Below are positions 25,290-39,400 of a DNA stretch of 64,000 bases, in pieces. The notes beneath the pieces are model-generated. The model was given only the letters and a program-made list of their open reading frames with translations, had not been told where the DNA came from and ran no database searches. The position numbers were made by a program, and so were the translations under genes. Numbering within the stretch: position 1 is the stretch's first letter; every line of letters starts with the position of its first letter. This DNA is from Caulobacterales bacterium RIFCSPHIGHO2_01_FULL_70_19. Its GTDB lineage: Bacteria; Pseudomonadota; Alphaproteobacteria; Caulobacterales; Caulobacteraceae. The DNA lies in assembly GCA_001794825.1 (NCBI GenBank), contig MGLK01000026.1:19619-83618 (forward strand), read 5' to 3'.

Positions 25290-25296
25290 TGGGTCC

Positions 25297-28200
25297 TCAG
25301 CGCGCCATCCAGACCCGGACCAGCGACAGCAGCTTGTCTACGTCGATGGGCTTGGCCATGTAATCGTTGGCGCCCGCCGCCAGGCAGCGTTCCTGGTCGT
25401 CCGGCATGGCCTTCGCGGTCAGCATGAGGACGGGCAACTTCGACCAGCGACCGTCCTCGCGAATGCGGCGCGTCGCAGTCAGGCCGTCCATCACCGGCAT
25501 CATGACATCCATCAGAACCAGATCCACTTCGCGGGCCGGATCGCCATCGGCGGCGGCCAGGACGTCCAGCGCCTCTTGACCGTTCCGTGCGATCTCAACA
25601 AGGGCTCCGCGAGGCTCGAGCACATTGGTCAGCGAATAGACGTTGCGGACATCGTCCTCGACGATCAGGATTCGTCGGCCCTCAAGAACGGCGTCGCGGT
25701 TGCGGGCCTGGCGGATCATTCGCTGCTGTTCGGGCGGCAGGTCCGAGACCACCTGATGCAGGAAGAGGGAAACCTCATCGAGCAACCGCTCGGGCGATTT
25801 TGCGCCCTTGATGATGATTGAGCTGGAGTAGCGGCGGAGCTGCTGTTCATGCTCCGGGGAGAGGTCCTTGCCGGTGTAGACGATCACCGGCGGGAAAGGC
25901 TGCTCGGGATCGCGGCTAAGCGTCTCCAACAGCGCGAAACCGTCCGCGTCCGGCAGAGTGAGGTCCAGCACCATGCAGTCGAAGGTCTGCCGGGCCAACT
26001 CCTCGAGGCACTCGGCCGCGGTCCCCACCCCGACGGTCTCGACCTGGCCGGAGGAGAGCAGAGCGCGGACCGCGTCGCGCTGGACCGGATCGTCCTCGAC
26101 GACCAGCACCCGGCGAACGGTCCGGTCCAAGGTCTCCTCCAGATGTTTCAGGGCTGCGGTGAGGTCCTCGCGCCGAGCGGGTTTCATCAGGTAGCCGACC
26201 GCGCCCAGAGCGAGGGCGGTCTGGCTGTGGTCGGCGGCGGATACGACATGGATCGGGATATGCCGGGTCTGGTCGTCGCGCTTGAGGCTGTCGAGGACGG
26301 TGAGCCCGGACTGGTCCGGCAAGCCGACGTCCAGAACGATGGCGCTCGGACGATACCGGCGGGCCATCCTGATCGCCTCCTCGGCGGTGCTGGCCACCAG
26401 GCACTGAAACTCCATCTCGCGAGACAGGTCCCGCACGATTTCGGCGAACCGGTCGTCGTCCTCGATCACAAGGAGCACTCTGCGTGCCTCGACGAGGTGG
26501 TCGCGATCGTCCTCGATCGCTCGCGGGGCCCGCATCGGGCGCGCGGGCGGCGCGGCGGGGGTGGGGGACTGGGAGGGCGCCGGCGGCGCGGCGCGCGGCT
26601 CGATCCGCTCTGGATCGTAAACGGCCGGGAGCGTGAGGGTGAAGGTGCTGCCCCTGCCCGGTTTGCTTTCCAGCGTAATGGTTCCTCCCAGCAGGCGGGC
26701 CAGTTCGCGCGAGATCGAAAGGCCCAGGCCAGTCCCGCCATACCGGCGGCTGATGGTGCCGTCGGCCTGCTGGAAAGCCTCGAAGATCGCCGATCGCTGG
26801 TCGGGCGAAATGCCGATGCCGGTGTCCTTCACCGCGAAGGCGATGTGTTCGCCGGCCTTCTTGATGGTGAGGCGGACGCCGCCGGACTCGGTGAACTTGA
26901 AGGCGTTGGACAAGAGGTTCTTGAGAATCTGCTCCAGGCGCTGCCGGTCGGTCTCGACCAGATCCGGGACAGCCTTGGCGATGTCGATCTCGAACGAGAG
27001 GCCTTTCTCGTCCGCGATCGGCTGGAAGGTCTGGAGCAGGTCCCCGGACAGGCGTTGAGGCGAAACGCCCTCGGGCTTCACCACGATATGCCCGGCCTCG
27101 ATCTTGGAAAGGTCGAGGATGTCGTTGATCAACGTCAGGAGGTCGTCGCCCGAGGACTGGATCGTGCGGGCGTAGCGCACCTGTTCCTCGGTCAGATTGC
27201 CCTCGGCGTTGTCGCCCAGGAGCTTGGAAAGGATCAGCAGCGAGTTCAGCGGCGTGCGCAGCTCGTGCGACATGTTCGCCAGGAAGTCGGACTTGTACTG
27301 ACTCGCCCGCTCAAGGTCCTGCGCCTTCACCGTCAATTCCGCGCCGGCGCGCTCCAGGTCGTCGCGCTGGGCTTCCAGCACCTGGGCCTGTTCCTCGAGC
27401 TGACTGTTGGTCTGCTCCAGCTCGACCTGCTGTTGCTCCAGCCGGACCTGGGACTCCTTAAGGGCGCGGCCCTGTTCCTCCAGTTCTTCATTGGAGACCC
27501 GCAGCTCCTCGCTTTGCACCTGGAGCTCTTCGGCTTGCCGCTGGGTCTCCTCAAGGGCGTCCTGGAGGTCAGCGCGGTAACGGGCCGACCGGAGCGCCAC
27601 GCCCATCGCCGGGGCCGCCTGCGACAGGAGTTCGCGGACCAGGTCGTTCGGGGGCTGCAGGAAGCCCAGTTCGACAACCGCGTTGACCACGCCGTCGGCC
27701 ATGGCGGGGGCGATCAGCAGGTGCCGCGGCTTGTCGCGACCGAGGGCTGAGCCGAAGGTCAGGTAGCCGTCCGGCACGTCGGCCAACAGGCGCGGCGCCC
27801 CTTCCGCAGCCACCTGGCCGAGCAGGCCTTCCCGGACATGGAAGGCTTGAGGCACCGGCGCATCCGAGGGCACGCCCAACGTCGCAGCCCGGCGAAACTG
27901 ACCGCCCTCGCCCTTGAACAGGGCGCCGGCCGGCGCATCCGTATATCGGGAGAGAAATTCGAGAATCCGTTCGCCCAGTTCCGTGACCGTGCGGTCGCCG
28001 CTCATCGCTTCGGCCAGGCCGACCTGACCCGCGCGCAACCAGTCCTGACGGCTGCGCGCCCGCGCGCTGCGGCGGATCAGAAGGAAGACCGTTACAGTGA
28101 GGACAATGCCCAGGAGTGCAGACAGCACCCCGCTGATCGTCGCCGTCCGATATGCGGCCTCCATCCGCGCCAGCCATTGCTGCCGCTCACGAAGCCCTTC

Positions 28201-28731
28201 GGCGCTGATCGCGGCGACGCGTTCGCGGATCGCCTCCATCTCGACCTGACCGCGGTTGGTGTTGACAGCGGCGAGGGCGGGCTGAAGACCGCCGGTCCTG
28301 CGCAGTTCGACCGTCCGGCGCAGTTCCTCCATCTTGGCGTCGACGTGGCGACGCAGCTGGGCGATGCTCGACTGCTGACGCGGATTGTCGGCCGTCAGCT
28401 GGAGGAGGTTGTCGATATGGCCTTCCATATCAGCCTCCGCCCGCTCGTAGGGCTCCAGATACTGATCGCGCCCGGTCAGAATGTAGCCGCGCTGCCCGGT
28501 CTCCGCGTCTTGAGCGGCCGCGAGCACCGCGTCAGCGCCGACCAGGACAGAGTGGGTATGGACGACGCGCCGGCTGTTGGCCCGCAGGTCCTGGATATTC
28601 GCGTAGGCGATGACGCCGCTGAGGACAAAGAAGCCCAGAACGGCGGCCAGACCTCCGGCCGCCCACAGTTCCACTCTTGAGCGACCTGCCGGTTCACCGG
28701 CGCCAAACAGCGACATGGGGACCTCATTCAT
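25297..28731 (-). CDS. Hybrid sensor histidine kinase (CHASE3-TM-GAF-coiled coil-HisKA-HATPase-3xREC)
   Basis: TM plus CHASE3-like N-terminus. Q/E-rich coil '[21 protein letters not shown]'. H-box '[11 protein letters not shown]' (His codon 27265-27267). '[13 protein letters not shown]'. Three receivers ('VLLVIEDDD', 'VLVVEDDP', 'ILIVEDDV...DVMMPVMDG'). Start set at ATG 28731; other starts are possible. Confidence 0.9.
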
Positions 28732-29109
28732 GACCCGAGCCTTGCCTAAAGGGTGGGAGCGAGAAGGCAAGGGGAGGCCTGGAGGCCGGCGCGGGCGACA
28801 CACGATCGGCCGCGATTGCGGCCGGATCGTCGGCGTTGGCGTTTGCTGACCGGACCGGTTATGGCGGTATGGCGGGGAGTGGAGCCGAGGCTCGCCTTCG
28901 ATCGCTCGCGCGTCACGCGGGTCGGATCCGGAAGGGCGAGCTGTTCTGGCTTTCGACGGCGCAGCAGGCGACCTCGCCGCCTGGCCTGGAAGGTTGGACC
29001 AAGCTTGGCCGGGCCGGTCCCAGGTGAGGTGCTGTCCACACGACTGTCAGGGTCGTCCTGCGGCGCTCGTTTGATCGAAAGTCGATTGCCGCGACGCGAA
29101 CCCTGCTCC

Positions 29110-29368: not shown

Positions 29369-30097
29369 TCAGGTGCTTTCCGGATACCAATGCAGTGACC
29401 GGTAGCAGGTAGGGGCGTCCCCGGAGTTCAGCCGCCCGATGCGGTGGCCGACGCCCTTGTAGACGTTGCAGCTCTGCAAGACCTTCTTGAAGGAACCTCG
29501 CTCGCCCGCGCCTGACCCTTTGTGCAGCAGATGGTCGGCGCAGATCTGGGCGATGATGGAGAAGACGTCCATGTGGGCCGTCGGGACCCGGGCTTGGCGA
29601 AACAGGTCCTGGACGGGGTCCTCGAGCTTGTCGATCGGCAGTGCGAACTGCGCCACCAGGGCGTCGCCGAGCTCCGCCATTGTCTGGATCTGGTGGTGAA
29701 ACACGGGGTGGCCGAGATTGCTCTCGTCGAGGTCGTAGTGTGCGCCGTAGATGTGGGTCAGCACCCGATCCTTGTAGCGGAAATAGCCGACGTGCGTCTT
29801 GAAGTGCGTGGCCAGGTACTGGCCGGCCTGCAGAGCCGCGCGATCGAACGTCAGTCGCCCTTCCACCACGACGTATATCTGCTTGCCGGGACGATCACCT
29901 CGTTCCGGGACCTGAAAGACCACGGGCTTCATCGCCAGAACGATGTGATCGGCGCGATCCGGGGCCATGAAGTGAAAGACGTCGTCAAACGCCGCCGGTC
30001 TGATCGTGATGCCTTGCTGGATCTTGCGTGCGGACGCGCAGGCGTCGGTCCACGCCCTTTCGAGGCGGCGGGCGAGGCGGCCTTCGTCGGTATCCAT
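29369..30097 (-). CDS. Hypothetical protein (candidate effector of the methyltransferase-kinase operon)
   Basis: 242 aa from ATG 30097 ('MDTDEGRLARRLERAW...'), 10 nt after the stop of the receiver-like gene. His-rich segment 'YGAHYDLDESNLGHPVFHHQIQ'. No family recognised. Confidence 0.6.
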   Translation of the reverse strand: MDTDEGRLARRLERAWTDACASARKIQQGITIRPAAFDDVFHFMAPDRADHIVLAMKPVVFQVPERGDRPGKQIYVVVEGRLTFDRAALQAGQYLATHFKTHVGYFRYKDRVLTHIYGAHYDLDESNLGHPVFHHQIQTMAELGDALVAQFALPIDKLEDPVQDLFRQARVPTAHMDVFSIIAQICADHLLHKGSGAGERGSFKKVLQSCNVYKGVGHRIGRLNSGDAPTCYRSLHWYPEST

Positions 30098-30107
30098 TTT
30101 GTGGGTG

Positions 30108-31202
30108 TCAAAGGCCAAGGAGCGGCGCCCACTCTTCGTAGAAGCCGCTCTCGACCCGGCAAGCGCGGGCTCCATCTGGAACCCAGCTGCTTGAGCTGAT
30201 CGAACAGTCCGATCGGACGCAAACCGGACGGTGGGTGAAGGGGCAGTAGAAGCCGCCGTTGTCGCCATTGCAGCGCGAGCAGTCGTGTCGGGGGAGGGCT
30301 TCGCCGAGCTGCCGCTCGGCGATCGCCCGGTTCAGGGCGCCGATCGTTTCGGCCTCGTCATCCAGACCTTCGCCGAGGGTTTCCAGCCGATCATCAATGC
30401 GATCCCGCCAGAAGAACGATCCGCTGGCGGCGAAGGGGCCCTCGTAGCGGGCATCCTCGAAGATGCCGGCAAGCCGATCGAAGCCCGCAGCGTCACAGGC
30501 GAAATAGGCGCACAGCGCCTTCTCGTGAAGGATCGGTCCCGGATACTTCAGCACCGCGTTGAGAAGCAGGTGGCCGGCGACATAGGCGATCAGGCCAAGC
30601 TTTTCGCTGTCGGTCGGTTCGAGCTCCTCCGGCGCTGTCGCTCGAACGCGCTGCAGCAGGGCTCCGCTGGTCGCGCCAAAGGCGGGCGAATACAGCGCCA
30701 GCTGGCTTTCCATCTCGGGACGGCCCAGCAGGGTCGCCAGGACCGACGCGGGCGAGCGCAAGGGCAGATACGTGTCGCGATCATCAAGGATCGCTGTGCG
30801 GATGGCGTGGAACCCCCGGAAGGCCTGTTCGATGAAGGCGGCGGCCGTGCCGTCGGCCGGCACGCGCAGTTCAAAGAAGTTCGGCTCCTTCGGAAGCGCA
30901 TCGACCGTCTTGCGTGAGAAGTCCCCGACGGGAATCGCGCGTTGCTGGCTCCATCCGACGACGGTCGGCCCAAAGAAGCCGGTCTGGCCTCGCCTGGTCA
31001 GATCGTAGTCGGTGACGATCAGCACCGTGGTTTCGTCGACCAGTTCCTGCAGCTTCTGGAGCGGCTTGTCATGCTCCTCGGGCGACCAGGGACGGACGTC
31101 GACGTTGAGGTTGGCCAGCCGGCTCTCCAGGTCGGCCGTCAGCGTGGCGAGCTGAACCTGATCGTCGTCGACCAGCAGAAGGGAGGGGCGCACGTCAGGC
31201 AT
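30108..31202 (-). CDS. Receiver-like domain protein with unknown central domain and C-terminal Cys cluster
   Basis: N-terminus 'SLLLVDDDQVQL' (31161-31178) and 'VLIVTDYDLT' (31002-31019) fit REC beta1/beta3 acidic residues. C-terminus 'CSRCNGDNGGFYCPFTHRPVCVRSDC'. ATG shares a base with the upstream TGA. Confidence 0.65.
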   Translation of the reverse strand: MPDVRPSLLLVDDDQVQLATLTADLESRLANLNVDVRPWSPEEHDKPLQKLQELVDETTVLIVTDYDLTRRGQTGFFGPTVVGWSQQRAIPVGDFSRKTVDALPKEPNFFELRVPADGTAAAFIEQAFRGFHAIRTAILDDRDTYLPLRSPASVLATLLGRPEMESQLALYSPAFGATSGALLQRVRATAPEELEPTDSEKLGLIAYVAGHLLLNAVLKYPGPILHEKALCAYFACDAAGFDRLAGIFEDARYEGPFAASGSFFWRDRIDDRLETLGEGLDDEAETIGALNRAIAERQLGEALPRHDCSRCNGDNGGFYCPFTHRPVCVRSDCSISSSSWVPDGARACRVESGFYEEWAPLLGL

Positions 31203-33448
31203 CAGTCGGTTCCGGCCGGTAGAGGGAGACGAATCTGGACGCAGGTGGCGAACTCGGGCGGCGGCGGCACGACGTTGGCCGTCCCTCCGAACGCGGCCGC
31301 GCCGCGGCGAACCAGCGCCAGGCCGAGCCCCATGCCCGATCCAAGCGGGTCCTGACTGGAGTCCGTGGTGGTGAACAGGGGATCGAACACCCGTTCCTTG
31401 AGCAGGTTGGGAATGCCGATTCCGGTGTCCGCGACTTCCAGCACGTGGTGGCGGCCATCGTTCCAGGCGCGGAAGGTGATCCGTCGTGGGCCGTCGCCCG
31501 ACTTCGCCGTCACGGCCTTCAGGGCGTTAGTGTACAGGTTGAGCGCCAACCCGTTGTACAGCGAGGCGGGCACCAGGGGCGAGAGAAGGTCCGAGTCGGC
31601 CTCGATCTCCAGCGAGATGCCCCGGGTGTCTGCATAGCTGCCAAACACACGCGCGACCTGCTGCAGACGAGGCCGGACCTTGTACGGCTTGTTCGGCGTG
31701 ACGCGCGACCCCCGGATATAGCCTTGGGAGTAGGTGACGAACTCCTCGAGCTTGGCGATATGCCCAGCGAAGGCGTCGGCCGTCTCGGCGAAGGTCTCAT
31801 CCTTTCGCGCGAGCTCGAGCAGTTTGCGCTGCGTGTCCTTCAGCTCATGCAAGGCAATGCCGAACTCGTGGGTCATGAACCCGGCGACGACGCCGAGGAG
31901 GCTCATCACTTCAAGCTGACGAACGCGCTCCTGGGCGCTCTCATCCTGCTCCGTCGCCCGGCGTTCGGTCTGCGCCAGCGCCGAAACGATGCGATTCTTC
32001 TCGTGTTCCGGGATCGTGGAACTGGCCTCGATGGCCTCGATCGCCTCGCGGGTCTCGGTTCGAAGCGCCTTCAGCTTCTCCTTGCGCTCAGCCTCTTCTT
32101 CGTCCCGCTGGATGGCGCGGTCGGCATAGGCGATCAGCTCGGCGGCGCCGCGAACGATGTCCTGCAGCTGGGCGAAGGCGAGGTTCTCGACGAAGCCTTC
32201 CCGGTCGGCCGAAGCGACCAGGCCCTCCGTCTCGTCCTGCTCAAGGCTGCGCCGGCCCGCCACCTGCACGACCCCCACCACCTGCGTCTGCTGGGGCAGG
32301 CGCAGCATGTAGTTCTCGGACGTCGAGCTGCGAACGGCCGCGTCCATGGGGTAGTGCTTGAGCGCGATGGTGGAACGGGGATCCCGGTAGTTCCGCCCGC
32401 TGTCAGCGGACAGGCGGAGCCAGTCGTCACCCGCCGCTCCATAAGGATAGACCCGGAAAGCCCGATCGAAGACCGCGACGCCAGAGTTGTCGACGATCCA
32501 GCGGCGCGCGCGCGGGCCGTCGACGCCGAGGCCCCTGAAGACGCCCTTGCGGTAAGGGAGAAAGCGCAGATCGGCCCAAGCCCGGCCGATCTCGTTGGCG
32601 TAGGTGTCCGTGACCTCGAGATAGGGCGCCTCATCGCCTTGGCGATACACAGTAATCGTAAGACGGTCGCCTGCGAGGTCGACCACGGCCTTCAGCGCGT
32701 ACGCCTCCAGGATTTCGGCGGCGACATCCCCTTTGGCGGCATCGTCCTTGTCGGCCGGGCGAATCTTGAGAACGAAACCAGGATCCTGCTCGGCGCCCGT
32801 GTCGCGCTCTTCATCCCTCAGGGGCGCGCCGTCCAGCAGGGTTCGCAAGGGAGTGAGCACGCCGATCGACCCAGTGCGAACCCGCTGCATGTTGATGAGG
32901 TCGACGCCGGCCCGAAGCTTGCTGACCGTCAAGGTGACGCCGGTCTGCGCTTCCTCGTGCAGGCGCTCGAGGGTGTAGGGGACGCGCACGTCTCCAAGCT
33001 CCTCGATCCGGTCGATCTCTGGCCAATCAAAGGTGGCTGTGAGTCGCGTCAGTCCTTTACTGTCACGGGCGACCGAGACCAGATGCAGGTGGCGGCCGAG
33101 GAAGCGCACCGCGAACCGGCCGATGCCCTTCTCCCCCGTGATCGCGCGGCCATAGCGAGGGCTGCGGCCCTCAGCCTCCTTGGCGCTGGTTCCGATTCTC
33201 ATCCACCCGTTGATAAACTGGTCGAGCGTCATGCCCAGACCGGTGTCCTGGACGACCAGCTTCCCGTCCGCCAGGGTGACGACGCAATCTTGCGAGTCTG
33301 CGTCGTAGGCGTTCTTGATGAGCTCGATCAGCGCGACTTCGGGCTGTTTGACGAGGCGCTCGCCGAGCTCGCGCAAGATGCGGCTCTCGATGGTGAAGGC
33401 CAACTCGCCTTTACCGACTACGTCCGGCGGAAGGGCGGGCTCGGTCAC
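31202..33448 (-). CDS. Dual GHKL protein: N-terminal MORC/Hsp90/MutL-type ATPase head fused to a C-terminal histidine-kinase core
   Basis: N-terminus: N-box 'ELIKNAYDAD' (33305-33325), G1 'QDTGLGM', G2 'GEKGIGRFA'. Central coiled coil. H-box 'FMTHEFGIALHEL' (His codon 31868-31870). C-terminal N-box 'LYTNALKAV', G1 'VADTGIGIP', F 'FDPLFTT', G2 'GSGMGLGLALV'. GTG 33446-33448 overlaps the MTase TGA. Confidence 0.8.
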   Translation of the reverse strand: MTEPALPPDVVGKGELAFTIESRILRELGERLVKQPEVALIELIKNAYDADSQDCVVTLADGKLVVQDTGLGMTLDQFINGWMRIGTSAKEAEGRSPRYGRAITGEKGIGRFAVRFLGRHLHLVSVARDSKGLTRLTATFDWPEIDRIEELGDVRVPYTLERLHEEAQTGVTLTVSKLRAGVDLINMQRVRTGSIGVLTPLRTLLDGAPLRDEERDTGAEQDPGFVLKIRPADKDDAAKGDVAAEILEAYALKAVVDLAGDRLTITVYRQGDEAPYLEVTDTYANEIGRAWADLRFLPYRKGVFRGLGVDGPRARRWIVDNSGVAVFDRAFRVYPYGAAGDDWLRLSADSGRNYRDPRSTIALKHYPMDAAVRSSTSENYMLRLPQQTQVVGVVQVAGRRSLEQDETEGLVASADREGFVENLAFAQLQDIVRGAAELIAYADRAIQRDEEEAERKEKLKALRTETREAIEAIEASSTIPEHEKNRIVSALAQTERRATEQDESAQERVRQLEVMSLLGVVAGFMTHEFGIALHELKDTQRKLLELARKDETFAETADAFAGHIAKLEEFVTYSQGYIRGSRVTPNKPYKVRPRLQQVARVFGSYADTRGISLEIEADSDLLSPLVPASLYNGLALNLYTNALKAVTAKSGDGPRRITFRAWNDGRHHVLEVADTGIGIPNLLKERVFDPLFTTTDSSQDPLGSGMGLGLALVRRGAAAFGGTANVVPPPPEFATCVQIRLPLPAGTD

Positions 33449-34824
33449 GAGGCAACCGCCGGCGAGAACAGTTCGCGAAGCAGCATGTTCAGCTGATTGA
33501 TCTCGATCTTCCGCAGACCGTTGCTGTGCGCGACGATGCGCCCGGCCAGGTCCATCGTCGCCGCTGTCGAGGCCAGTCTCGCCTTGCTCGCCTCGTCGAT
33601 ATTGTAGAGGCCGCAGACGCCGCCGACGGCCTTGGCGCCGATGATGTTGTTCACCGCCTTGGGAAAGCGCCCGCGGAAGCTCTGCGACATCAGCATGTCG
33701 GGCGTCGGCGGCATGACGAACCGCCACCAGACCTCCCGGCCGTTGCAGGTTGCGGTCTTTCGCTCTTCGATGGGGGTGCTCTCCAGGTACAGGAGGAGCT
33801 CCCGGCTCGCCTCTACATCCGTCCGGATCAGCCAACACTTGTGGCCGGGGTCGCGATAGTGGGCGTTGAAGGTCTGCCGATCGAGGACGGCGACATCGTT
33901 CGGCAGGTGTCGGAGGGTGGTGACGCAAGGAACGACGTCGCGGTCCACCCGCAGTCCCCCGTGCACCCGCTCCCCCTCGGTCAGGGTCAGGATTTTCTGC
34001 GTGCCGGGACTGAGACCGCGCACAGCGCGAGCTTCGCCGGCCTTTACATCGGCGCGGCGCCGGTAGCCGATCACGCCGCCTTCTCCGCCGGTAGGCGAGG
34101 GCAGGGGGGTATAGGCGCCGTCGGCGGTCTCTTCGAAGTAACGCCAGCGCCCATCCGTCCCGGTCTTGTCGATCAGGGTGATGCTCGCCGTAGTCAGGAC
34201 CGCGTCAAAGGTGCTGTCGACCAGACGGTAGACATCCACGCGCCAACCCTTGCCCTTGATGTAGTCCCGAAGCGCCTTCGCCGAGGGGCGAGAAACCCAT
34301 TCGAACGGGACCACCAGCGCGCACAGACCGTCCGGCTTGGTGCTGGCCAACGCCAGGAAGAAGAAATATTGCCAGGCGTTCGCCAGCCCGGACAGGCGCA
34401 CGCCCGTGCGCTCCTCGATCACCTTGCTGGCCGATCGCCGCCATCCGTCGGGCAGGTGCTGGTTGCGCACGAACGGCGGGTTACCGATGCACACGTCGGC
34501 CTGCATGCGGTCGGCCGAAAAGGCGCACTGGTCCAGAAGGTCTGCATTGTCTGGTAAGTCAGCGTCCCGGATCCGGGTCTTGTCCACCTCGAAGCCGATG
34601 TATTGATCGTACCGGCCGCAGCGGGCGAAACGTCCATCGCCGGCTCCGAAGTCCACCACCATGCCGACGTGTTCGCGCAGCTGGTGCACATGGTCCCAGG
34701 TCGCCCTCACCAGCTTGGGAGGAGTGTCGACCTGGCAAATGTTGAGGTAGAGCGCGATCGTCCGCTCGCAGCCCCATTCGGGCGCGAGTCGAGACGCCAC
34801 GGTCGTTTCGGCAGCCCCCTGCAC
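33445..34824 (-). CDS. N6-adenine DNA methyltransferase (gamma-class, Eco57I/TaqI-like) with large C-terminal target-recognition region
   Basis: Motif I 'VVDFGAGDGRF' (~34632-34661) precedes motif IV 'IGNPPFV' (NPPF codons 34471-34482). About 250 aa of C-terminal region with no recognised domain. Start codon (GTG 34824) uncertain. Confidence 0.8.
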   Translation of the reverse strand: MQGAAETTVASRLAPEWGCERTIALYLNICQVDTPPKLVRATWDHVHQLREHVGMVVDFGAGDGRFARCGRYDQYIGFEVDKTRIRDADLPDNADLLDQCAFSADRMQADVCIGNPPFVRNQHLPDGWRRSASKVIEERTGVRLSGLANAWQYFFFLALASTKPDGLCALVVPFEWVSRPSAKALRDYIKGKGWRVDVYRLVDSTFDAVLTTASITLIDKTGTDGRWRYFEETADGAYTPLPSPTGGEGGVIGYRRRADVKAGEARAVRGLSPGTQKILTLTEGERVHGGLRVDRDVVPCVTTLRHLPNDVAVLDRQTFNAHYRDPGHKCWLIRTDVEASRELLLYLESTPIEERKTATCNGREVWWRFVMPPTPDMLMSQSFRGRFPKAVNNIIGAKAVGGVCGLYNIDEASKARLASTAATMDLAGRIVAHSNGLRKIEINQLNMLLRELFSPAVAS

Positions 34825-35064
34825 CGTGCTTCTTCTCTTACGTCGTCTCGCCCTGACCGGCGTGGGCAGATGCTAGGGGAACAACCCTTGCTTATCAACT
34901 AAGCTGTTGATTCCGCCGTCGTTCCGATAGTCCTTGATCAGAGGACCTGACGCCGAGGTGGGCTTGGGGCGGCCCGCGTCGGCGTGGCAGGACGCCAGGG
35001 CTTGACGCAGGTCAACGTGAACCCCTCCTGCCCATGGAACAAGAAGCCGAAGGGAGGCCCAGCA

Positions 35065-35910
35065 ATGGCCATGCGCGATATACTGTTACAGATCGACACC
35101 TATCCCGAAGCGACATCGAATGACGCCCTCGATCAGGCCATCCGGTTCGCGGTGGCCATGGACGGATTGCTGTCGGCATTGGCGGTCGAGGTCGAGATTC
35201 AGGCTCCCCGCAATCGGCTGGCCGACTATCTGATCGGCCTCGCTCACATTGCTGCCGAGGAGGAGCGGAAAAGCCGCCGCCTTTGCGCAGCGGCGCTTGA
35301 GCTCTTCAACACGAGGGCCGAGGCGGCAGGCGTGCTCGGCCAAGCCATTCATGGCCGCGCGGATCTCTACAGCGTCGGGACCTATGTCGCCGACGCGTCG
35401 CGCACCCGTGACCTCTGCATCGTACCTGTCGCCGACCGATTTGACGGGCAGCGCGCCATTCTGGAGGCGGTCGCCTTCGGCTCCGGTCGTCCGGTCCTGA
35501 CCTTCCGCCCCGGCGTGGCAGACCTCGCCGCCGCGCTGAACACGATCGTACTCGCCTGGGACGGATCGCGCACAGCGGCCCGCGCCCTGGCGGATGCCCT
35601 GCCCATCCTTGGGAAGGCGCGCGAAGTGCGGATTCTGACGGTGATCAACGAGAAACCCACCGCGCGCGCAGGCTTGGGCCAGGACGTCCGACGTCATCTC
35701 GAGGCGCACGGCGTCAGCGCCGCGGTCGACGAAGTCGACGCGGGCGGACGACGCATAGGACAGGTGTTCGAGGACTACCTGGCCGGACGTGACGCCGATC
35801 TCTTCGTAATGGGCGCCTACGGCCGATCACGGGCAAGGGAGTTCATCCTCGGCGGTGCGACGGAGCACATGCTGCACGATCCCCGCGTTCCCCTGCTTCT
35901 GTCGCACTAA
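35065..35910 (+). CDS. Universal stress protein (tandem UspA domains)
   Basis: 'ILLQIDTYPE', C-terminal ATP-binding-type 'DLFVMGAYGRSRAREFILGGATEHML'. ATG 35065. Confidence 0.8.
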   Translation: MAMRDILLQIDTYPEATSNDALDQAIRFAVAMDGLLSALAVEVEIQAPRNRLADYLIGLAHIAAEEERKSRRLCAAALELFNTRAEAAGVLGQAIHGRADLYSVGTYVADASRTRDLCIVPVADRFDGQRAILEAVAFGSGRPVLTFRPGVADLAAALNTIVLAWDGSRTAARALADALPILGKAREVRILTVINEKPTARAGLGQDVRRHLEAHGVSAAVDEVDAGGRRIGQVFEDYLAGRDADLFVMGAYGRSRAREFILGGATEHMLHDPRVPLLLSH

Positions 35911-36420: not shown

Positions 36421-37002
36421 CTACTTGGCGCCAGCCGTCGCCCGGTTCCGGGCCAAAGCCCGGTAAAGGGTGCTGCGTGAGACGCCCAAAGACGAGGCGA
36501 TTGCCTCCATCGTCTGATCCGGGTGGCTCAGGAGGAGCCGCGCCTGTGCGATCTGTCGCTCGCTGAGCGCCCGCTTGCGGCCACCCCTTCTCCCGCGCGC
36601 CCGTGCAGCCGCCAGGCCGGCCATGGTCCGCTCCCGAATGAGATCCCGCTCCATCTCGGCAAGCGCTGCCATCATGTGGAAGAAGAATCGGCCGGCGGGC
36701 GTCGTCGTATCGATGCCGTCCGTGAGGCTGCGGAAGCCGACCCCTCGACCTCTCAGTTCAGCGACCAGCTCCACCAGCTGGCGGACGGTTCGGCCGAGGC
36801 GGTCCAGCTTCCATACGGTGAGCGTATCGCCCTCACGCAAGTAGCTCAGGGCTTCCCTCAAGCCAGGGCGCTCGACCTGCGCACCCGAGGTGGCATCGGC
36901 GAAGATCTGGCTGCAGCCGGCGGCCCTCAGAGCGTCGGTCTGCAGATCAACGTTCTGATCCGCTGTCGAAACGCGGGCGTAGCCAACCATCATGTCGCAC
37001 AA
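36421..37002 (-). CDS. Serine recombinase (resolvase/invertase family)
   Basis: 'VGYARVSTADQNVDLQ' with the catalytic Ser, 'VWKLDRLGR', C-terminal HTH 'IASSLGVSRSTLYRAL'. The real start is probably one of the internal Met codons (MMVGYARVS). Confidence 0.92.
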   Translation of the reverse strand: MCDMMVGYARVSTADQNVDLQTDALRAAGCSQIFADATSGAQVERPGLREALSYLREGDTLTVWKLDRLGRTVRQLVELVAELRGRGVGFRSLTDGIDTTTPAGRFFFHMMAALAEMERDLIRERTMAGLAAARARGRRGGRKRALSERQIAQARLLLSHPDQTMEAIASSLGVSRSTLYRALARNRATAGAK

Positions 37003-37317: not shown

Positions 37318-39399
37318 CTAGGAGGCCTTGGCGACCTCAACCAATCTGCCTCCTTCCAGCTTAAGCACTCGATCTGCAGCCTCAATCAACCTAGGCCGAT
37401 GGGCGACGACGATTCGCGTAATTTTTAATCCCTTTACGAAATCGCAGATCAGCGCCTCGTTCTCGCTGTCCAAGTTCGCGGTTCCTTCGTCCAGGACGAG
37501 GATGGCCGGATCGCGGTATATGGCACGAGCCAGGATCACACGCTGAAGCTGTCCACCCGATAGACTGGTGCCCATGTCGCCAACGCGAGTCCAGTAGCCC
37601 ATCGGCATTTCCTCAATCTCGTCGGCGATCTTGGCCGCCGCGGCAGCCCGCTTCACACGGTCTAAATCAAGCTCAAGAGGAAAACCCGCGATATTCTCGG
37701 CGACGGGACCGGCGAGCAGCTGATCATTCTGGGCCACATAGCCGATGTGCCTTCGGACGGCGGAGCGAGTGTCTGGAGCCAATTCGCGTCCGTCGATCCG
37801 GATACGTCCGCTGGACGGCTCCAGAAGACCAAGCAGCAATTTGACCAACGTCGTCTTGCCTGCGCCGGAGGCTCCAACGATCGCGACGAACTCGCCTTGC
37901 GATATGACGAGGTCTAGGTCACGAAGCACCAACGGAAGTCCAGCGCCGTAGGCATAGGTCACGCCCTGCAGTTCGATCGCACCACGTACGCATATGTTTG
38001 CGCCTGCTACCGTCTCCGGCGGTTCCGACAGAATGTCCTTCAGACGCTCGAGATGGACGTCCAGCAGCCGGAACTGGACCAGTTGCAAGTTGAGGGCGTT
38101 TGCGCGCTCCGCGAATATCTGCCGATACGCCAAAAAGGCGACCAGCATCCCGATTGAGAGGCCGGATCCCGACAGTACCGACCTCGCGCCCAGGTACAGG
38201 ATGATCACCCCCTGCAGCCCCTGCAGGCCGACCTGCACCGCCGCGTTGATCGACTGCCATTTGGAGGCAAGCAGACCTGCGTTGAGCGCTCGGATGAGGA
38301 GGTTCTGCCACTGAGAATCTCGTGTGGTCTCCAGTCCGAGGACCTTGATGAGCGTGGCTCCCCTCACTGATTCTATGAGGTGGTTCTGCTCCTGAGCAGA
38401 CTCTACGACCTGTTCGGCGATTTGCCTGCGCACACGGGGGTAGATGAGCATCGTGACGCCAGCGGAGACGGCGGCGAACAGGGCCGCAATCAGAGCCAGC
38501 GGGGGCGAGTACAGCGTCATTATTGCCAACGCGCCGAGCGCCGTCAGCAGATCCAGCCCTGCGGTCAGCACGCCCTTGGTCAGAACCTCCTGCACGCTTC
38601 GAACGGAGTTCACCCGTGACAGGACATCCCCGACGGCTCTGACCTGAAAATAAGCCATCGGCAGGCGAATGAGCCGATGAACGACGTTACTGAGCAGTCG
38701 GAAGTTAAGGCCGGCTCCGACGATGTTGAGCGTCCAAGCTCGGAGGCCGTCGAGAAGGGCGTGGGTGACAACGATCACCCCGAAGGCCACGGCCAGCGGC
38801 AGCAGGATGTCTGCGTCCTCACCACTGATCGCGCGATCGAGGGTCAGCTGGGTTTGAAGCGGGAGCGCAAAGAGGACCACCTGGAGCGCCAGCGACACTA
38901 TCAGGGCTTGGCCGGCGACTGCATTCAGTCCGGACAGACCGCGAAACAGATCCCGAAGGCGCAGGGGCGTACGGGCATCGATGGGCCGGAACTCGGGGGC
39001 GCGATCGAGTTCCAGCGCCACCCCTGTGAAGGCGTCCGACAGCACTTTCCGCGGAACTTTCCGAGCTCCAACGGCGGGGTCAATGATTGTCGCCTCCCTG
39101 CCGTCGAAGCCGGAGAGGACAACGAAGTGGTCAAAGCGCCAGTGAAGGACCGCGGGGAGTTGAAGAAGCTCAAGCTCTTCTATTTCCACGCGGATGGGTC
39201 TCGTTCGCAGGCCGAGCGCTTCGCCCACGTCCATCAAGGTAGCGAGCGTGGCTCCGGCTGCCGAACTGGGGAACCGCTTCTTCAGATCCGTCAGGTCGAT
39301 CTTGTGGCCCCAGTAGCCCGCAACCATGGCGAGGCAAGCCAATCCGCAATCGGCCTGCTCCGCCGCGAGGATCATCGGAACATTGCGGCGTCTGGGCAT
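37318..39399 (-). CDS. Peptidase-C39-domain ABC transporter (PCAT, bacteriocin/RiPP exporter)
   Basis: C39 catalytic 'QADCGLACLAMVAGYWG' and 'FDHFVVL'. Six-TM region. Walker A 'GASGAGKTT', signature 'LSGGQLQR', Walker B 'ILVLDEGT'. ATG 39399 lies 2 nt from the HlyD stop. Confidence 0.9.
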   Translation of the reverse strand: MPRRRNVPMILAAEQADCGLACLAMVAGYWGHKIDLTDLKKRFPSSAAGATLATLMDVGEALGLRTRPIRVEIEELELLQLPAVLHWRFDHFVVLSGFDGREATIIDPAVGARKVPRKVLSDAFTGVALELDRAPEFRPIDARTPLRLRDLFRGLSGLNAVAGQALIVSLALQVVLFALPLQTQLTLDRAISGEDADILLPLAVAFGVIVVTHALLDGLRAWTLNIVGAGLNFRLLSNVVHRLIRLPMAYFQVRAVGDVLSRVNSVRSVQEVLTKGVLTAGLDLLTALGALAIMTLYSPPLALIAALFAAVSAGVTMLIYPRVRRQIAEQVVESAQEQNHLIESVRGATLIKVLGLETTRDSQWQNLLIRALNAGLLASKWQSINAAVQVGLQGLQGVIILYLGARSVLSGSGLSIGMLVAFLAYRQIFAERANALNLQLVQFRLLDVHLERLKDILSEPPETVAGANICVRGAIELQGVTYAYGAGLPLVLRDLDLVISQGEFVAIVGASGAGKTTLVKLLLGLLEPSSGRIRIDGRELAPDTRSAVRRHIGYVAQNDQLLAGPVAENIAGFPLELDLDRVKRAAAAAKIADEIEEMPMGYWTRVGDMGTSLSGGQLQRVILARAIYRDPAILVLDEGTANLDSENEALICDFVKGLKITRIVVAHRPRLIEAADRVLKLEGGRLVEVAKAS

Positions 39400-39400
39400 A

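What the first reader, a model, noticed from the sequence alone, without database searches (positions are those of the whole stretch)
31202..33448. Single polypeptide carrying two Bergerat-fold ATPase modules (MORC/Hsp90-like head plus canonical histidine-kinase core)
**What the sequence shows.**
- The N-terminal ~250 aa have E-x-x-x-N-x-x-D 'ELIKNAYDAD', D-x-G-x-G 'DTGLGM' and 'GEKGIGRF'. This is the pattern of HATPase_c_3/MORC/MutL-type ATPases, which usually act on DNA or as clamps.
- After a Glu/Lys/Arg-rich coiled coil there is an H-box, 'MTHEFGIALHEL'.
- A second, kinase-type ATPase follows ('NLYTNALKAV', 'VADTGIGIP', 'FDPLFTT', 'GSGMGLGLALV').
- No TM segment or classical sensory domain (PAS/GAF/HAMP) is visible.

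**Inference.** The MORC-like head is the sensor, for example of DNA state or foreign DNA, and it gates autophosphorylation.
Basis: partly seen in the sequence, partly recalled or inferred. Interest (0 to 1): 0.72.

Follow-up and report, generated by a model that had tools for sequence, protein, structure and literature searches.

The report
Two-ATPase sensor kinase beside DNA methylase
The gene really does encode one soluble protein with a MutL/Hsp90-type ATPase head fused to a complete histidine-kinase core. It is the kinase of a conserved four-gene cassette that looks like a restriction-modification-type system run through a phosphorelay; this architecture was predicted by computer in 2021 and has never been tested.

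Summary
**Observation confirmed.** Window 33448..31202 (minus strand) encodes a 748-aa cytoplasmic protein with:
- HATPase_c_3 at aa 36-145 (E 2e-19);
- a DHp helix carrying H527;
- HATPase_c at aa 636-744 (E 1e-21).

All nucleotide-binding motifs of both modules, and H527, are invariant in 58 relatives down to 24% identity.

**Not an oddity.** At least 629 clusters (50% identity) match at E<=1e-30.

**Conserved cassette.** The gene overlaps its neighbours: Eco57I-type N6-adenine methyltransferase, then the kinase, then a receiver-like protein (REC fold, D12/D13/D65, helical domain plus Zn ribbon), then a ~245-aa protein ("G4").
- G4 models confidently (pLDDT 90) but has no structural relative.
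- Across 83 loci, the receiver follows the kinase in 69/71 and G4 follows in 58/65.
- A DNA-modification gene is linked in 42/43. It is usually an N6 methylase, sometimes a C5 methylase with Vsr, or SspABCD phosphorothioation with a PbeA-like nuclease-helicase.

**Precedent.** The architecture with a receiver-like partner and methylase was published computationally (Bellieny-Rabelo 2021, HEF_HK/Response_reg_2). This clade falls below both Pfam thresholds.

**Best reading (about 0.5).** The kinase-receiver-G4 trio is the "restriction" side of a modification-based self/non-self system.

The parts
33445..34824 (-). N6-adenine DNA methyltransferase (459 aa), Eco57I-type. Motif I VDFGAGDG lies at 34633-34656 and NPPF at 34471-34482. 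Its stop overlaps the kinase start by 4 nt (GTGA).
   Evidence: Pfam Eco57I PF07669, E 4e-11. PADLOC MTase_II, E 1.5e-18. The same gene sits at -1 in all loci of this clade. Junction sequence.
31202..33448 (-). The finding itself: a 748-aa soluble dual-GHKL sensor histidine kinase.
32879..33409 (-). N-terminal GHKL (Bergerat) ATPase head, aa ~14-190; the Pfam HATPase_c_3 match covers aa 36-145 (33014-33343). Motif I is E42/N46/D49, motif II is D68xG70xG72, motif III is G105xKG108xG110R111.
   Evidence: Pfam E 2.4e-19. All motif residues are 58/58 in relatives. Profile against PDB: MutL, HtpG, MORC. hhalign HtpG 97%, MutL 95%. NCBIfam BbrUII/HgiDII restriction-enzyme N-terminus, E 1.7e-15.
32129..32878 (-). 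Middle region, aa ~191-440, fold unassigned. Family-invariant residues: G337, D342, W343 (motif FRVYPYG..DDWL, 32417-32464) and R416 (DREG; R416 at 32201-32203). It may be a transducer-like domain supplying a basic finger to the head ATP site, but this is unproven.
   Evidence: Conservation. No Pfam or NCBIfam match. A profile of this region finds nothing in PDB sequences.
31904..32128 (-). Charged helical linker or putative coiled coil, aa ~441-515, joining the middle region to the DHp helix.
   Evidence: 50% E/K/R/D/Q. The region varies in length and sequence among relatives. Not modelled.
31679..31903 (-). DHp (dimerisation/histidine-phosphotransfer) region, aa ~516-590. The phospho-acceptor H527 (31868-31870) lies in 'THEF'.
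   Evidence: H527 is 58/58 and E528 is 44/58. AtoS/ZraS models align across it. PDB kinases ZraS, KinB and LvrB align from aa ~498-540. Pfam HEF_HK gives only E 0.31, 12 bits, at aa 518-569.
31217..31543 (-). C-terminal kinase-type CA (HATPase_c) domain, aa 636-744, with N box (N637/N641), G1 (D674xG676xG678), F box (688-694) and G2 (G703xG705xG707xG709).
   Evidence: Pfam E 1.1e-21. PDB histidine kinases down to E 9e-8. Box residues are 53-58/58.
30108..31202 (-). Receiver-like partner (364 aa); its start shares 1 nt with the kinase stop (TGATG).
- REC-like domain aa 1-118 (30849-31202), with D12/D13 (31164-31169), phospho-acceptor D65 (31008-31010) and S96.
- Helical domain aa ~119-300.
- Five-Cys Zn ribbon aa 305-336 (30195-30290).
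   Evidence: AF2 pLDDT 83, pTM 0.85. Foldseek hits to receivers 3hdv, CheY 3rvo and RR468 3dge_C: probability 0.99-1.0, target-normalised TM 0.54-0.57, but E only ~1e-2. D13 is 73/76 and D65 is 74/76 across the superfamily. At +1 in 69/71 loci. No Pfam hit.
29369..30118 (-). Fourth gene, 'G4': 249 aa from a TTG at 30118 that overlaps the receiver gene by 11 nt, or 242 aa from an ATG at 30097. Core residues are H127-Y-D129 (29732-29740), HPVFHHQ (29690-29710) and R177 (29588-29590). Function unknown; candidate effector or accessory enzyme.
   Evidence: AF2 pLDDT 90.3, pTM 0.88. No Foldseek match in PDB (best E 0.15) or BFVD. No PDB sequence, Pfam or PADLOC hit. At +2/+3 in 58/65 loci. Its two sequence clusters are linked by hhalign at 94.5% probability. 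Invariant residues.

Best explanation
The gene encodes the sensor kinase of a self-contained, horizontally mobile four-gene cassette: N6-adenine methyltransferase, dual-GHKL kinase, receiver-like protein, G4. I read the cassette as a restriction-modification-type self/non-self system in which the methylase marks host DNA and the other three proteins form the 'restriction' side.

**Proposed sequence of events.**
1. The kinase is a cytoplasmic dimer held by its DHp helices.
2. Its N-terminal MutL/Hsp90-type ATPase head, with the conserved middle region, goes through an ATP-driven dimerisation or clamp cycle on DNA, or on a DNA-bound partner such as the methylase.
3. The outcome of that cycle depends on whether the DNA carries the cassette's mark.
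4. The state is passed down the charged helical linker to the DHp/CA core.
5. The core autophosphorylates H527 and transfers the phosphoryl group to D65 of the receiver-like protein.
6. The phosphorylated receiver protein (helical domain plus Zn ribbon), together with G4 (invariant H-x-D...P-x-x-H...R), carries out the response: damage to unmarked DNA, or growth arrest.

**Shown.**
- The domain anatomy.
- Conservation of both ATP sites, the phospho-acceptor His and the acceptor Asp.
- The REC fold of the partner.
- Tight gene coupling.
- Near-universal linkage to interchangeable DNA-modification modules.

**Inferred.**
- That DNA is the signal.
- The direction of signalling.
- That phosphotransfer occurs at all.
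- The nature of the effector.
- The defence phenotype.
For: **Both catalytic modules are under purifying selection.** The following are each 58/58 in relatives down to 24% identity:
- E42, N46, D68, G70, G72, G105, K107, G108, G110, R111 (head);
- H527 (DHp);
- N641, G676, G705, G707, G709 (CA).

**The head is of the DNA-enzyme/chaperone GHKL branch, and of the kind fused to restriction enzymes.**
- PDB profile hits to MutL, HtpG and MORC; hhalign to HtpG and MutL.
- NCBIfam BbrUII/HgiDII restriction-enzyme model, E 1.7e-15.
- PADLOC REase_II models.

**A cognate receiver exists.**
- The model has a REC fold.
- D13 and D65 are conserved in 73/76 and 74/76 sequences.
- It sits immediately downstream in 69/71 loci.

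**The genes are translationally coupled.** Overlaps are 4, 1 and 11 nt.

**A modification gene is linked in 42/43 loci with enough flank, and its chemistry changes while the trio stays.**
- Eco57I/N6 methylase, either upstream or downstream.
- C5 methylase plus Vsr.
- SspA/B/C/D phosphorothioation genes plus a PbeA-like HKD-nuclease/helicase (PADLOC E from 1e-87 to 0).
- Swappable modification modules around a constant partner are the signature of R-M-type systems.

**The surroundings are mobile and variable.**
- Integrases and ArdC are the commonest neighbours.
- One copy lies in a conjugative element.
- One lies beside an integrase and a toxin-antitoxin pair on a megaplasmid.
- In this window the cassette sits in a low-GC stretch with Tni transposition genes, an IS and a resolvase.

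**Independent authors** reached the R-M association for the related HEF_HK/Response_reg_2 pairs (PMC8011034).
Against: - No recognisable nuclease or other effector domain is present in the four-gene form. G4 and the receiver's C-terminal domain match nothing.
- No PADLOC defence model matches the kinase core, the receiver or G4, and no experiment exists for any member.
- The S5/transducer domain expected of clamp-type GHKL ATPases could not be demonstrated.
- Nothing shows that the head binds DNA.
- The conserved Lys of canonical receivers was not identified.
- The Foldseek E-values for the REC domain are weak (~1e-2), although probabilities are about 1.0.
- The family is nearly absent from sequenced plasmids (1 full-length hit in 72,556) and from phages.
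- My gene calls in the metagenome loci are crude (longest-ORF, greedy).
Confidence: 0.5

Rival explanations
1. Reversed logic. The MutL/Hsp90-like head is the working part: an ATP-driven DNA clamp or remodeller that recruits or licenses a nuclease, as MutL does for MutH, Vsr or UvrD. The kinase core and receiver protein are its regulator or timer, not its output. The system is still modification-linked, but the head is an effector rather than a sensor.
For: - Iyer et al. proposed that MORC and paraMORC proteins in R-M operons act as DNA-looping engines alongside nucleases and helicases (PMC2292703).
- Some variant loci carry a separate PbeA-like HKD-nuclease/helicase, or Vsr.
- The head resembles the N-terminus of BbrUII/HgiDII restriction enzymes.
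- The four-gene form has no recognisable nuclease.
Against: - In histidine kinases the module N-terminal to the DHp helix is, as a rule, the input (established knowledge).
- The receiver protein has its own large conserved C-terminal domain, which looks like an output.
- Most loci have no separate nuclease or helicase for the head to recruit.
Confidence: 0.2
2. An ordinary regulatory two-component system. The kinase senses a cytoplasmic cue such as the nucleotide pool or DNA damage, and the receiver protein is a Zn-ribbon DNA-binding transcription factor that controls the linked methylase or other genes. The role is epigenetic or R-M regulation, not restriction.
For: - This is the speculation of the 2021 paper: NTP sensing and control of R-M systems.
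- The receiver's C-terminus is a helical domain plus Zn ribbon, which could bind DNA.
- No nuclease is visible.
Against: - No HTH or other known DNA-binding output domain is detected.
- The trio keeps its composition while the modification chemistry changes between m6A, m5C and phosphorothioate. That is hard to explain for a regulator tuned to one enzyme.
- Overlapping genes suggest stoichiometric co-translation rather than a regulator with a target.
- G4 has no role in this scheme.
- The cassette moves as one unit between phyla.
Confidence: 0.15
3. An abortive-infection or toxin-type system whose trigger is a phage protein or infection stress, not the DNA mark. It would be analogous to Detocs, with the methylase serving another purpose, for example protection from a co-resident enzyme.
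For: - A two-component phosphorelay is known to run an anti-phage system, Detocs (own knowledge: Rousset et al. 2023, Cell).
- The effector is unidentified.
- Hsp90-type heads bind proteins as well as nucleotides (HtpG is the best hhalign match).
Against: - A modification gene is present in 42/43 loci and is translationally coupled. That argues it is integral to the system.
- No Detocs model matched.
- No buffer receiver or PNP-type effector is present.
Confidence: 0.1
4. The kinase half is a degenerate pseudo-kinase kept only as a dimerisation scaffold, so no phosphotransfer occurs.
For: - No Pfam HisKA hit; HEF_HK gives only 12 bits.
- The canonical T/N at H+4 is absent.
Against: - H527, the N box and the G1 and G2 boxes are invariant or nearly so over 58 diverse sequences.
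- The partner's acidic pocket and D65 are conserved.
- The CA domain scores 78 bits.
Confidence: 0.03

Closest known systems
HEF_HK / Response_reg_2 'two-component-system-like elements' linked to R-M systems (Bellieny-Rabelo, Pretorius & Moleleki 2021, Genome Biol Evol, PMC8011034; Pfam PF19191, PF19192)
   Same: - Same architecture: HATPase_c_3, then a DHp helix with an H-E-F-type H-box, then HATPase_c (their 'group 1', 174/222 sequences).
- Soluble.
- An adjacent divergent receiver-like protein with conserved acceptor Asp.
- A DNA methylase next door.
- Proposed descent from paraMORCs.
- The head proposed as the sensor.
- The protein here has 'THEF' at the H-box.
   Different: - This protein scores only 12 bits (E 0.31) against HEF_HK, whose cut-off is 24.1, and its partner does not hit Response_reg_2.
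- Only 1 of 58 diverse relatives hits HEF_HK at 1e-3.
- The methylase here is an Eco57I-type N6-adenine enzyme. That paper stresses C5 methylases and does not mention Eco57I.
- The conserved fourth gene G4 and the SspABCD-linked form are not described there.
- That work is purely computational, so no function is known for either set.
Prokaryotic MORC / paraMORC GHKL ATPases of R-M operons (Iyer, Abhiman & Aravind 2008, PMC2292703)
   Same: - N-terminal GHKL domain of the MutL/Hsp90/MORC branch with all ATP motifs intact.
- Lives in operons with DNA methylases, and sometimes with Vsr or SF2-helicase/nuclease genes.
- Patchy distribution consistent with lateral transfer.
   Different: - The defining S5 domain could not be shown here.
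- The MORC signature GhXhhpXXRhl is only approximated, by GVAVFDRAFRVY with one extra residue.
- None of paraMORC1-5 is described with a DHp/CA kinase core (the text search found 'histidine kinase' only as part of the GHKL name).
- Hsp90 and MutL score at least as well as MORC.
Detocs, a defensive two-component system (own knowledge: Millman et al. 2022; Rousset et al. 2023)
   Same: A cytoplasmic histidine kinase plus a receiver-domain protein used for immunity rather than gene regulation. This is precedent that a His-Asp relay can gate a defence effector.
   Different: - No sequence relationship was detected (no PADLOC Detocs hit).
- Detocs has a TPR-type sensor, a buffer receiver and a PNP ATP-cleaving effector.
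- Detocs has no GHKL head and no DNA-modification gene.
GHKL-headed restriction enzymes (NCBIfam NF050001 BbrUII/HgiDII family; PADLOC REase_II PDLC03485 and PDLC03419)
   Same: The head (aa 18-188) aligns with the N-terminal ~177 residues of these enzymes, E 1.7e-15 and 5.5e-9. A comparable ATPase head is therefore used in bona fide R-M enzymes.
   Different: - The score is 57 bits against a family cut-off of 550.
- The remainder of those proteins (the nuclease part) is replaced here by the middle region, linker and kinase core.
Modification-based multi-gene defences with ATPases and unclear sensing: BREX/MANTIS, SspABCD-SspE/SspFGH, Dnd-Pbe (bioRxiv 10.64898/2026.09.23.753747; PMC8092258; PMC6459918; PMC10853773)
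   Same: - A modification module paired with an ATP-using restriction module.
- Some relatives of this kinase sit directly between sspABCD and a PbeA-like HKD-nuclease/helicase.
   Different: The kinase, receiver and G4 are not SspE, SspF, SspG, SspH, PbeB, PbeC or PbeD (descriptions; no PADLOC hits). None of those systems uses a histidine kinase or a receiver.

Membership tests
GHKL (Bergerat-fold) ATPase: N-terminal module | Motif I (E-x-x-x-N-x-x-D), with the catalytic Glu and the Mg-binding Asn | tested here: met
   E42, N46 and D49 are each 58/58 in relatives. Pfam HATPase_c_3 scores 70 bits against a cut-off of 25.
GHKL (Bergerat-fold) ATPase: N-terminal module | Motif II (D-x-G-x-G) and motif III (the G-x-x-G-x-G ATP lid) | tested here: met
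   D68, G70, G72, G105, K107, G108, G110 and R111 are each 58/58.
GHKL (Bergerat-fold) ATPase: N-terminal module | ATP binding and hydrolysis | not testable with these tools
   Needs an ATPase assay of the wild type against E42A and N46A.
MORC / paraMORC (Iyer 2008) | An S5-fold (transducer) domain directly after the GHKL domain, supplying a basic residue to the ATP site | tested here: inconclusive
   - hhalign against E. coli MutL and HtpG aligns only the GHKL part.
- A profile of aa 185-450 finds nothing in PDB sequences.
- Invariant R416 (DREG) and R332 are candidate fingers.
MORC / paraMORC (Iyer 2008) | MORC-specific motif GhXhhpXXRhl in the S5 domain | tested here: inconclusive
   The nearest match is G323-VAVFDRAF-R332-VY (family consensus GGVxVYxxGFRV), which has one extra residue before the Arg. 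This was judged by eye only.
MORC / paraMORC (Iyer 2008) | Gene neighbourhood with R-M components (methylase, Vsr, SF2 helicase/nuclease) | tested here: met
   A modification gene is linked in 42/43 loci. Vsr and PLD-ResIII helicase occur in variant loci.
Class I histidine kinase core (DHp + CA) | H-box histidine on the first DHp helix, followed by an acidic residue | tested here: met
   H527 is 58/58 and E528 is 44/58. AtoS/ZraS models and PDB kinases align across the region. No Pfam HisKA hit at E<=10.
Class I histidine kinase core (DHp + CA) | N, G1, F and G2 boxes of the CA domain | tested here: met
   Pfam HATPase_c E 1.1e-21. N637 57/58, N641 58/58, D674 55/58, G676 58/58, G705, G707 and G709 58/58.
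Class I histidine kinase core (DHp + CA) | Autophosphorylation and transfer to a cognate receiver Asp | not testable with these tools
   Only the presence of a conserved receiver-like partner could be shown.
Class I histidine kinase core (DHp + CA) | HisKA phosphatase motif (T/N at H+4) | tested here: not met
   Position 531 is Ile here. Among relatives it is mostly A, S, R or G.
Pfam HEF_HK (PF19191) family of Bellieny-Rabelo 2021 | A score above the Pfam gathering threshold for HEF_HK | tested here: not met
   12.0 bits, E 0.31, at aa 518-569, against a cut-off of 24.1. Only 1 of 58 relatives reaches E 1e-3, and none of 10 further relatives does.
Pfam HEF_HK (PF19191) family of Bellieny-Rabelo 2021 | Architecture HATPase_c_3 + DHp + HATPase_c, soluble | tested here: met
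   All 58 relatives carry both ATPase domains.
Pfam HEF_HK (PF19191) family of Bellieny-Rabelo 2021 | An adjacent gene with a Response_reg_2 (PF19192) domain | tested here: not met
   The adjacent 364-aa protein has no Pfam hit even at E<=10. It is nevertheless REC-like by fold and by catalytic residues.
Pfam HEF_HK (PF19191) family of Bellieny-Rabelo 2021 | A linked DNA methylase | tested here: met
   An Eco57I-type N6 methylase overlaps the kinase start. The class differs from the C5 enzymes stressed in that paper.
Response-regulator receiver domain (the partner protein) | (beta/alpha)5 flavodoxin-like fold with an acidic pair after beta1, a phospho-acceptor Asp after beta3 and S/T after beta4 | tested here: met
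   - AF2 model with pLDDT 83.
- Foldseek hits to 3hdv, 3rvo and 3dge_C: probability 0.99-1.0, target-normalised TM 0.54-0.57, E ~1e-2.
- D12 is D or E in 73/76, D13 in 73/76, D65 in 74/76, and S/T at position 96 in 61/76.
Response-regulator receiver domain (the partner protein) | Conserved Lys after beta5 | tested here: inconclusive
   R113 is invariant in this clade but not conserved across the superfamily alignment. The alignment is unreliable in this region.
Detocs (PADLOC DtcA/B/C) | A match to Detocs component models | tested here: not met
   No Detocs model appears among the PADLOC hits for any of the four proteins.
BbrUII/HgiDII family restriction enzyme (NF050001) | A full-length match above the curated cut-off | tested here: not met
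   56.6 bits against a cut-off of 550. Only aa 18-188 align, to profile positions 3-177 of 659.

The most novel reading that the evidence does not exclude
The kinase-receiver-G4 trio is a portable 'restriction' module that can be coupled to at least three chemically different DNA marks: N6-methyladenine, 5-methylcytosine and phosphorothioate. It would use a His-Asp phosphorelay between sensing unmarked DNA (MutL/Hsp90-type ATPase head) and execution. G4, a confidently modelled fold with no solved or viral relative and an invariant H-x-D...P-x-x-H...R site, would be a new kind of effector enzyme or cofactor. If so, this would be the first R-M-type immunity run by two-component signalling, and a candidate missing partner for some of the many 'orphan' sspBCD modules.
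Probability: 0.35. Interest if true: 0.8.

Novelty: new variant of a known kind. Interest (0 to 1): 0.55.

Why it matters
How multi-gene, modification-based defences (BREX, Dnd/Ssp and relatives) tell self from non-self, and pass that decision to an effector, is an open question.

Here the link between sensing and execution would be a histidine kinase and a receiver. Their chemistry (His-to-Asp phosphotransfer) can be followed directly with standard assays and point mutants at H527, D65, E42 and N641. That makes the decision step unusually easy to test.

The family is large (at least 629 clusters at 50% identity), spans several phyla, and no member has been characterised. It also carries two domains without structural relatives: G4 and the receiver's output domain.

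If the defence reading fails, the result still matters for annotation. Hundreds of 'sensor histidine kinase' and 'hypothetical protein' calls belong to one four-gene module tied to DNA modification.

Tried and rejected
1. **Genome-contig scan with the single protein.** The metagenome scan with an alignment replaced it.
2. **Testing for an S5/transducer domain.** hhalign of the head-plus-middle profile against E. coli MutL and HtpG aligned only the GHKL part. A middle-region profile against PDB sequences found nothing. Unresolved.
3. **The last structure job went to G4 rather than the kinase N-terminal half.** G4 modelled with high confidence but matched nothing in PDB or BFVD. No function was gained, and the kinase itself remains unmodelled.
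4. **G4 by sequence.** No PDB hit with a profile. Only sub-threshold DUF7736 hits in Pfam (3 of 42 members, best E 0.0015). No PADLOC hit. By eye I considered GIY-YIG, PD-(D/E)xK, HNH and 2OG-oxygenase (HxD...H) readings. I dropped them because the spacing and secondary structure do not fit and no search supports them.
5. **Known named systems.** MADS, PbeBCD, SspFGH and MANTIS are not related to the kinase, receiver or G4.
6. **A C-protein-like small HTH gene** precedes the methylase on the Paraburkholderia plasmid but is not conserved in other loci.
7. **Island boundaries in the window.** No tRNA and no convincing flanking repeats.
8. **Plasmid and phage collections.** Only one full-length plasmid copy and no real phage copy. 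There is no evidence that the cassette is phage-borne.
9. **Supplementary tables of the 2021 paper** are not held. I could not check whether this exact clade was in their data set.

Full report

Yes. The finding's coordinates bound an ORF on the minus strand (33448..31202, 748 aa, GTG start).
- The start is fixed by a 4-nt GTGA overlap with the stop of the upstream gene.
- It is also fixed by an identical 748-aa gene call on a JGI metagenome contig and by homologues of 743-761 aa.

Profile searches support both ATPase modules.
- Pfam gives HATPase_c_3 (PF13589) at aa 36-145, E 2.4e-19.
- Pfam gives HATPase_c (PF02518) at aa 636-744, E 1.1e-21. Both are well above the curated cut-offs.
- NCBIfam kinase models (AtoS, ZraS) align from about aa 430-495 to 743, covering the DHp helix as well as the CA domain.
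- Solved histidine kinases match the same region.

There is no membrane segment (maximum 19-residue hydropathy 1.49) and no PAS, GAF or HAMP domain.

**2. Anatomy of the protein**

*Head, aa ~14-190.* It is a GHKL domain of the MutL/Hsp90/MORC branch.
- A profile of the N-terminal 470 residues finds MutL (9e-8), HtpG (2e-7), MORC2/3 (1e-5) and PMS2 among PDB sequences.
- hhalign gives 97% probability to the whole N-domain of E. coli HtpG and 95% to MutL.
- NCBIfam's BbrUII/HgiDII restriction-enzyme model aligns with aa 18-188 (E 1.7e-15, far below the family cut-off).
- PADLOC REase_II models align with aa 24-114.
- It is therefore the kind of ATPase head seen on some restriction enzymes, but it is not specifically MORC.

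*Middle region, aa ~191-440.* It has no detectable relative. It carries family-invariant G337, D342, W343 (FRVxPYG..DDWL) and R416 (DREG).

*Linker, aa ~441-515.* A charged stretch (50% E/K/R/D/Q) leads into the DHp helix.

*DHp helix and CA domain.* The DHp helix carries H527 in 'THEF'. It is followed by a CA domain with N, G1, F and G2 boxes.

*Conservation.* I aligned 58 full-length relatives taken from an exhaustive search, 54% down to 24% identical.
- All the following are invariant: E42, N46, D49, D68, G70, G72, G105, K107, G108, G110, R111, H527, N641, G676, G705, G707, G709.
- Neither ATPase is degenerate.
- The T/N at H+4 that goes with phosphatase activity in HisKA kinases is absent.

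**3. Operon**

Four minus-strand genes overlap or abut.

*Methyltransferase.* 34824..33445, an Eco57I-type N6-adenine DNA methyltransferase with DFGAGDG and NPPF motifs (Pfam 4e-11; PADLOC MTase_II 1.5e-18).

*Kinase.* 33448..31202.

*Receiver-like protein.* 31202..30108, 364 aa.
- No Pfam or NCBIfam hit.
- AlphaFold gives pLDDT 83 and pTM 0.85.
- The N-terminal ~118 residues match receiver domains in Foldseek: 3hdv, CheY 3rvo, and RR468 from the HK853 complex 3dge_C. Probabilities are 0.99-1.0 and target-normalised TM 0.54-0.57, although E-values are only ~1e-2.
- D12/D13, D65 and S96 occupy the expected positions and are invariant in this clade.
- Across 76 superfamily members, D13 is present in 73 and D65 in 74.
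- The remainder is a helical domain plus a five-Cys Zn ribbon, with no structural match.

*G4.* 30118 (or 30097)..29369.
- Invariant H122, H127, D129, H137, H141, Q143, R177, D195 and H196 in this clade.
- No sequence relative in PDB, Pfam or PADLOC.
- The model is very confident (pLDDT 90.3, pTM 0.88) yet matches nothing in PDB (best E 0.15) or BFVD.

**4. Comparative genomics**

The protein is one of many.
- 1526 proteins matched at E<=1e-3 among the 8000 candidates scored in the word-indexed search. The best 120 are all ~750 aa with the same two Pfam domains and are named 'sensor histidine kinase'. They come from Sphingomonas, Ciceribacter, Bradyrhizobium, Burkholderia, Brevundimonas and an Actinomycetota MAG.
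- 629 clusters at 50% identity match at E<=1e-30 in the exhaustive search.
- The same four genes in the same order occur in Sphingomonas carotinifaciens, an Actinomycetota MAG inside a conjugative element and a Paraburkholderia megaplasmid next to an integrase and a ParDE pair.

A metagenome scan seeded with the alignment returned 80 loci, 54-23% identity. I called ORFs, searched them with profiles of the partners and clustered the neighbours. Over 83 non-redundant loci:
- The receiver-like gene is at +1 in 69 of 71 loci with enough sequence.
- A G4-family gene is at +2/+3 in 58 of 65. Its two BLAST clusters are linked by hhalign at 94.5% probability over the HxD..HPxxHxQ..RxP..MD core. H127, D129, P138, H141 and R177 are conserved throughout.
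- A DNA-modification gene lies within four to five genes in 42 of 43 loci with adequate flanks.

The modification module changes while the trio stays.
- Our clade: methylase-kinase-receiver-G4.
- The distant clade: kinase-receiver-G4-methylase.
- Five loci have a C5 methylase with Vsr and divergent receiver and G4 forms.
- Five loci have SspD immediately upstream of the kinase. Where the flank extends further it shows SspA, SspB and SspC as well (PADLOC E from 1e-87 to 0). A PbeA-like HKD-nuclease/SF2-helicase lies downstream in three of them.

Other neighbours are heterogeneous. Integrases and ArdC are the commonest families among 150 sampled ORFs. The four genes (or trio plus modification module) are therefore the unit.

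In this window the cassette lies in a 0.60-0.68 GC stretch within a ~0.70 GC chromosome. That stretch also holds a resolvase, an IS and TniA/B/Q.

**5. What is already known**

The architecture HATPase_c_3 + novel DHp + HATPase_c, its adjacent divergent receiver-like gene (91.6% linkage) and its association with methylases and R-M genes were described by Bellieny-Rabelo et al. 2021.
- They proposed descent from paraMORCs.
- They suggested that the N-terminal ATPase acts as the sensor.
- The work is computational. I found no later experimental paper.

The protein here is outside their models.
- HEF_HK scores 12 bits against a cut-off of 24.1.
- Response_reg_2 is not hit.
- Only 1 of 58 relatives hits HEF_HK.
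- Their text does not mention Eco57I-type methylases and does not characterise a G4-like gene.

No PADLOC defence model covers the kinase core, the receiver or G4. The trio is not MADS, PbeBCD, SspFGH or MANTIS.

**6. Most likely mechanism (confidence about 0.5)**

The cassette is an R-M-type self/non-self system. The methylase marks host DNA, and the kinase, receiver and G4 form the restriction side.

I propose the following chain of events.
1. The MutL/Hsp90-type head, with the middle region, cycles through ATP-dependent dimerisation on DNA or on a DNA-bound partner.
2. That state travels through the helical linker to the DHp/CA core.
3. The core sets H527 autophosphorylation.
4. The phosphoryl group passes to D65 of the receiver protein.
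5. The receiver's output domain, with G4, acts on unmarked DNA or stops growth.

What is shown:
- anatomy;
- conservation of all catalytic residues;
- the REC fold of the partner;
- gene coupling;
- linkage to interchangeable modification modules in mobile contexts.

What is inferred:
- DNA as the signal;
- the direction of information flow;
- actual phosphotransfer;
- the effector;
- the phenotype.

Main weaknesses:
- No recognisable nuclease in the four-gene form.
- The kinase N-terminal half was not modelled.
- No experiment exists for any member.

**7. Rivals**

- The head is the working DNA engine and the kinase/receiver its regulator (0.2). This fits Iyer's looping model and the loci with separate nuclease-helicases. 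It fits less well with the usual N-to-C logic of kinases and with the receiver's own large output domain.
- An ordinary regulatory two-component system controlling the methylase or other genes (0.15). This is the 2021 authors' suggestion. It is hard to square with swappable modification chemistry, overlapping genes and the conserved G4.
- A Detocs-like abortive system triggered by something other than the DNA mark (0.1).
- A pseudo-kinase scaffold (0.03), contradicted by the conservation data.

**8. Verdict**

The head is MutL/Hsp90/MORC-branch, the kinase is intact and the DNA link is strong. MORC membership and the sensor-gating step are unproven.
- The kind is already in the literature as a prediction. 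This is a divergent, Eco57I-methylase-linked variant that fails the Pfam family thresholds.
- What this analysis adds:
  - a conserved fourth gene with an unmatched fold;
  - the fold evidence for the receiver;
  - the linkage of the trio to m6A, m5C and phosphorothioate modules.
- Interest is moderate: unusual and testable, but not new as an architecture, and the mechanism is still inferred.

Noticed in passing
window 29369-30118 (-): The fourth gene of the cassette (G4, ~245 aa) models with very high confidence (pLDDT 90, pTM 0.88). It has no Foldseek match in PDB or BFVD and no sequence-family hit. H127-x-D129, P138, H141 and R177 are conserved across 64 superfamily members.
   Followed up: partly
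window 30108-30848 (-): The C-terminal two thirds of the receiver-like protein form a conserved helical domain plus a five-Cys Zn ribbon (C308, C311, C320, C328, C333). There is no structural or family match. This is the presumed output domain.
   Followed up: partly
L063, L065, L076, L079, L050 (e.g. L065:816-5974 and L063:9877-12147): In these metagenome loci the kinase-receiver-G4 trio has SspD immediately upstream. SspA, SspB and SspC were confirmed further upstream in L063, L065 and L076 (PADLOC E from 1e-87 to 0). A PbeA-like HKD-nuclease/SF2 helicase lies downstream in three of the five. I found no description of this pairing in the Ssp/Pbe papers I read.
   Followed up: partly
L059, L067, L069, L082, L089: A variant cassette with a C5 cytosine methylase and Vsr, a longer divergent receiver-like protein (~420 aa) and a ~219-aa G4-like protein (motif HPEIF...HAFFHVQP). 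It is probably closest to the type described in 2021.
   Followed up: partly
window 22757-28803 (-): Directly downstream on the same strand lies a second, unrelated signalling cluster:
- a CHASE3-GAF hybrid histidine kinase with three receiver domains (25297-28803);
- CheR (24465-25289);
- CheB (23893-24468);
- a REC-HisKA-HATPase protein (22757-23896).

It accompanies the cassette on the identical JGI contig, but not in other organisms.
   Followed up: partly
window ~20400-48600: This stretch has lower GC (0.60-0.68 against ~0.70) and begins right after lpdA. It contains:
- TniA/TniB/TniQ (44496-48020);
- an IS DDE transposase (43196-43933);
- a resolvase (36421-37002);
- a C39-peptidase ABC exporter (37318-39534) with HlyD (39401-40651);
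- a DUF6624 protein (41788-42783);
- a 388-aa ORF without a family (40661-41827).

No tRNA or flanking repeats were found to mark its ends.
   Followed up: partly
window 21473-22995 (-): On the minus strand, my longest-ORF listing gives 172 aa (21473-21991) and 334 aa (21991-22995), neither with a Pfam or PADLOC match. The identical JGI contig calls two back-to-back genes of 172 and 175 aa here. The 334-aa ORF overlaps the REC-kinase gene, so its 5' half is probably not real.
   Followed up: no
L094:4331-4576 (Paraburkholderia plasmid NZ_AP023177.1): A small HTH gene overlaps the start of the cassette's methylase, like the controller (C) proteins of R-M systems. A search of the other loci found no conserved counterpart.
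   Followed up: yes
window 34984-35910 (+): A tandem universal-stress-protein (Usp) gene is transcribed divergently from the methylase. It is also present on the identical JGI contig, but not next to the cassette elsewhere.
   Followed up: no
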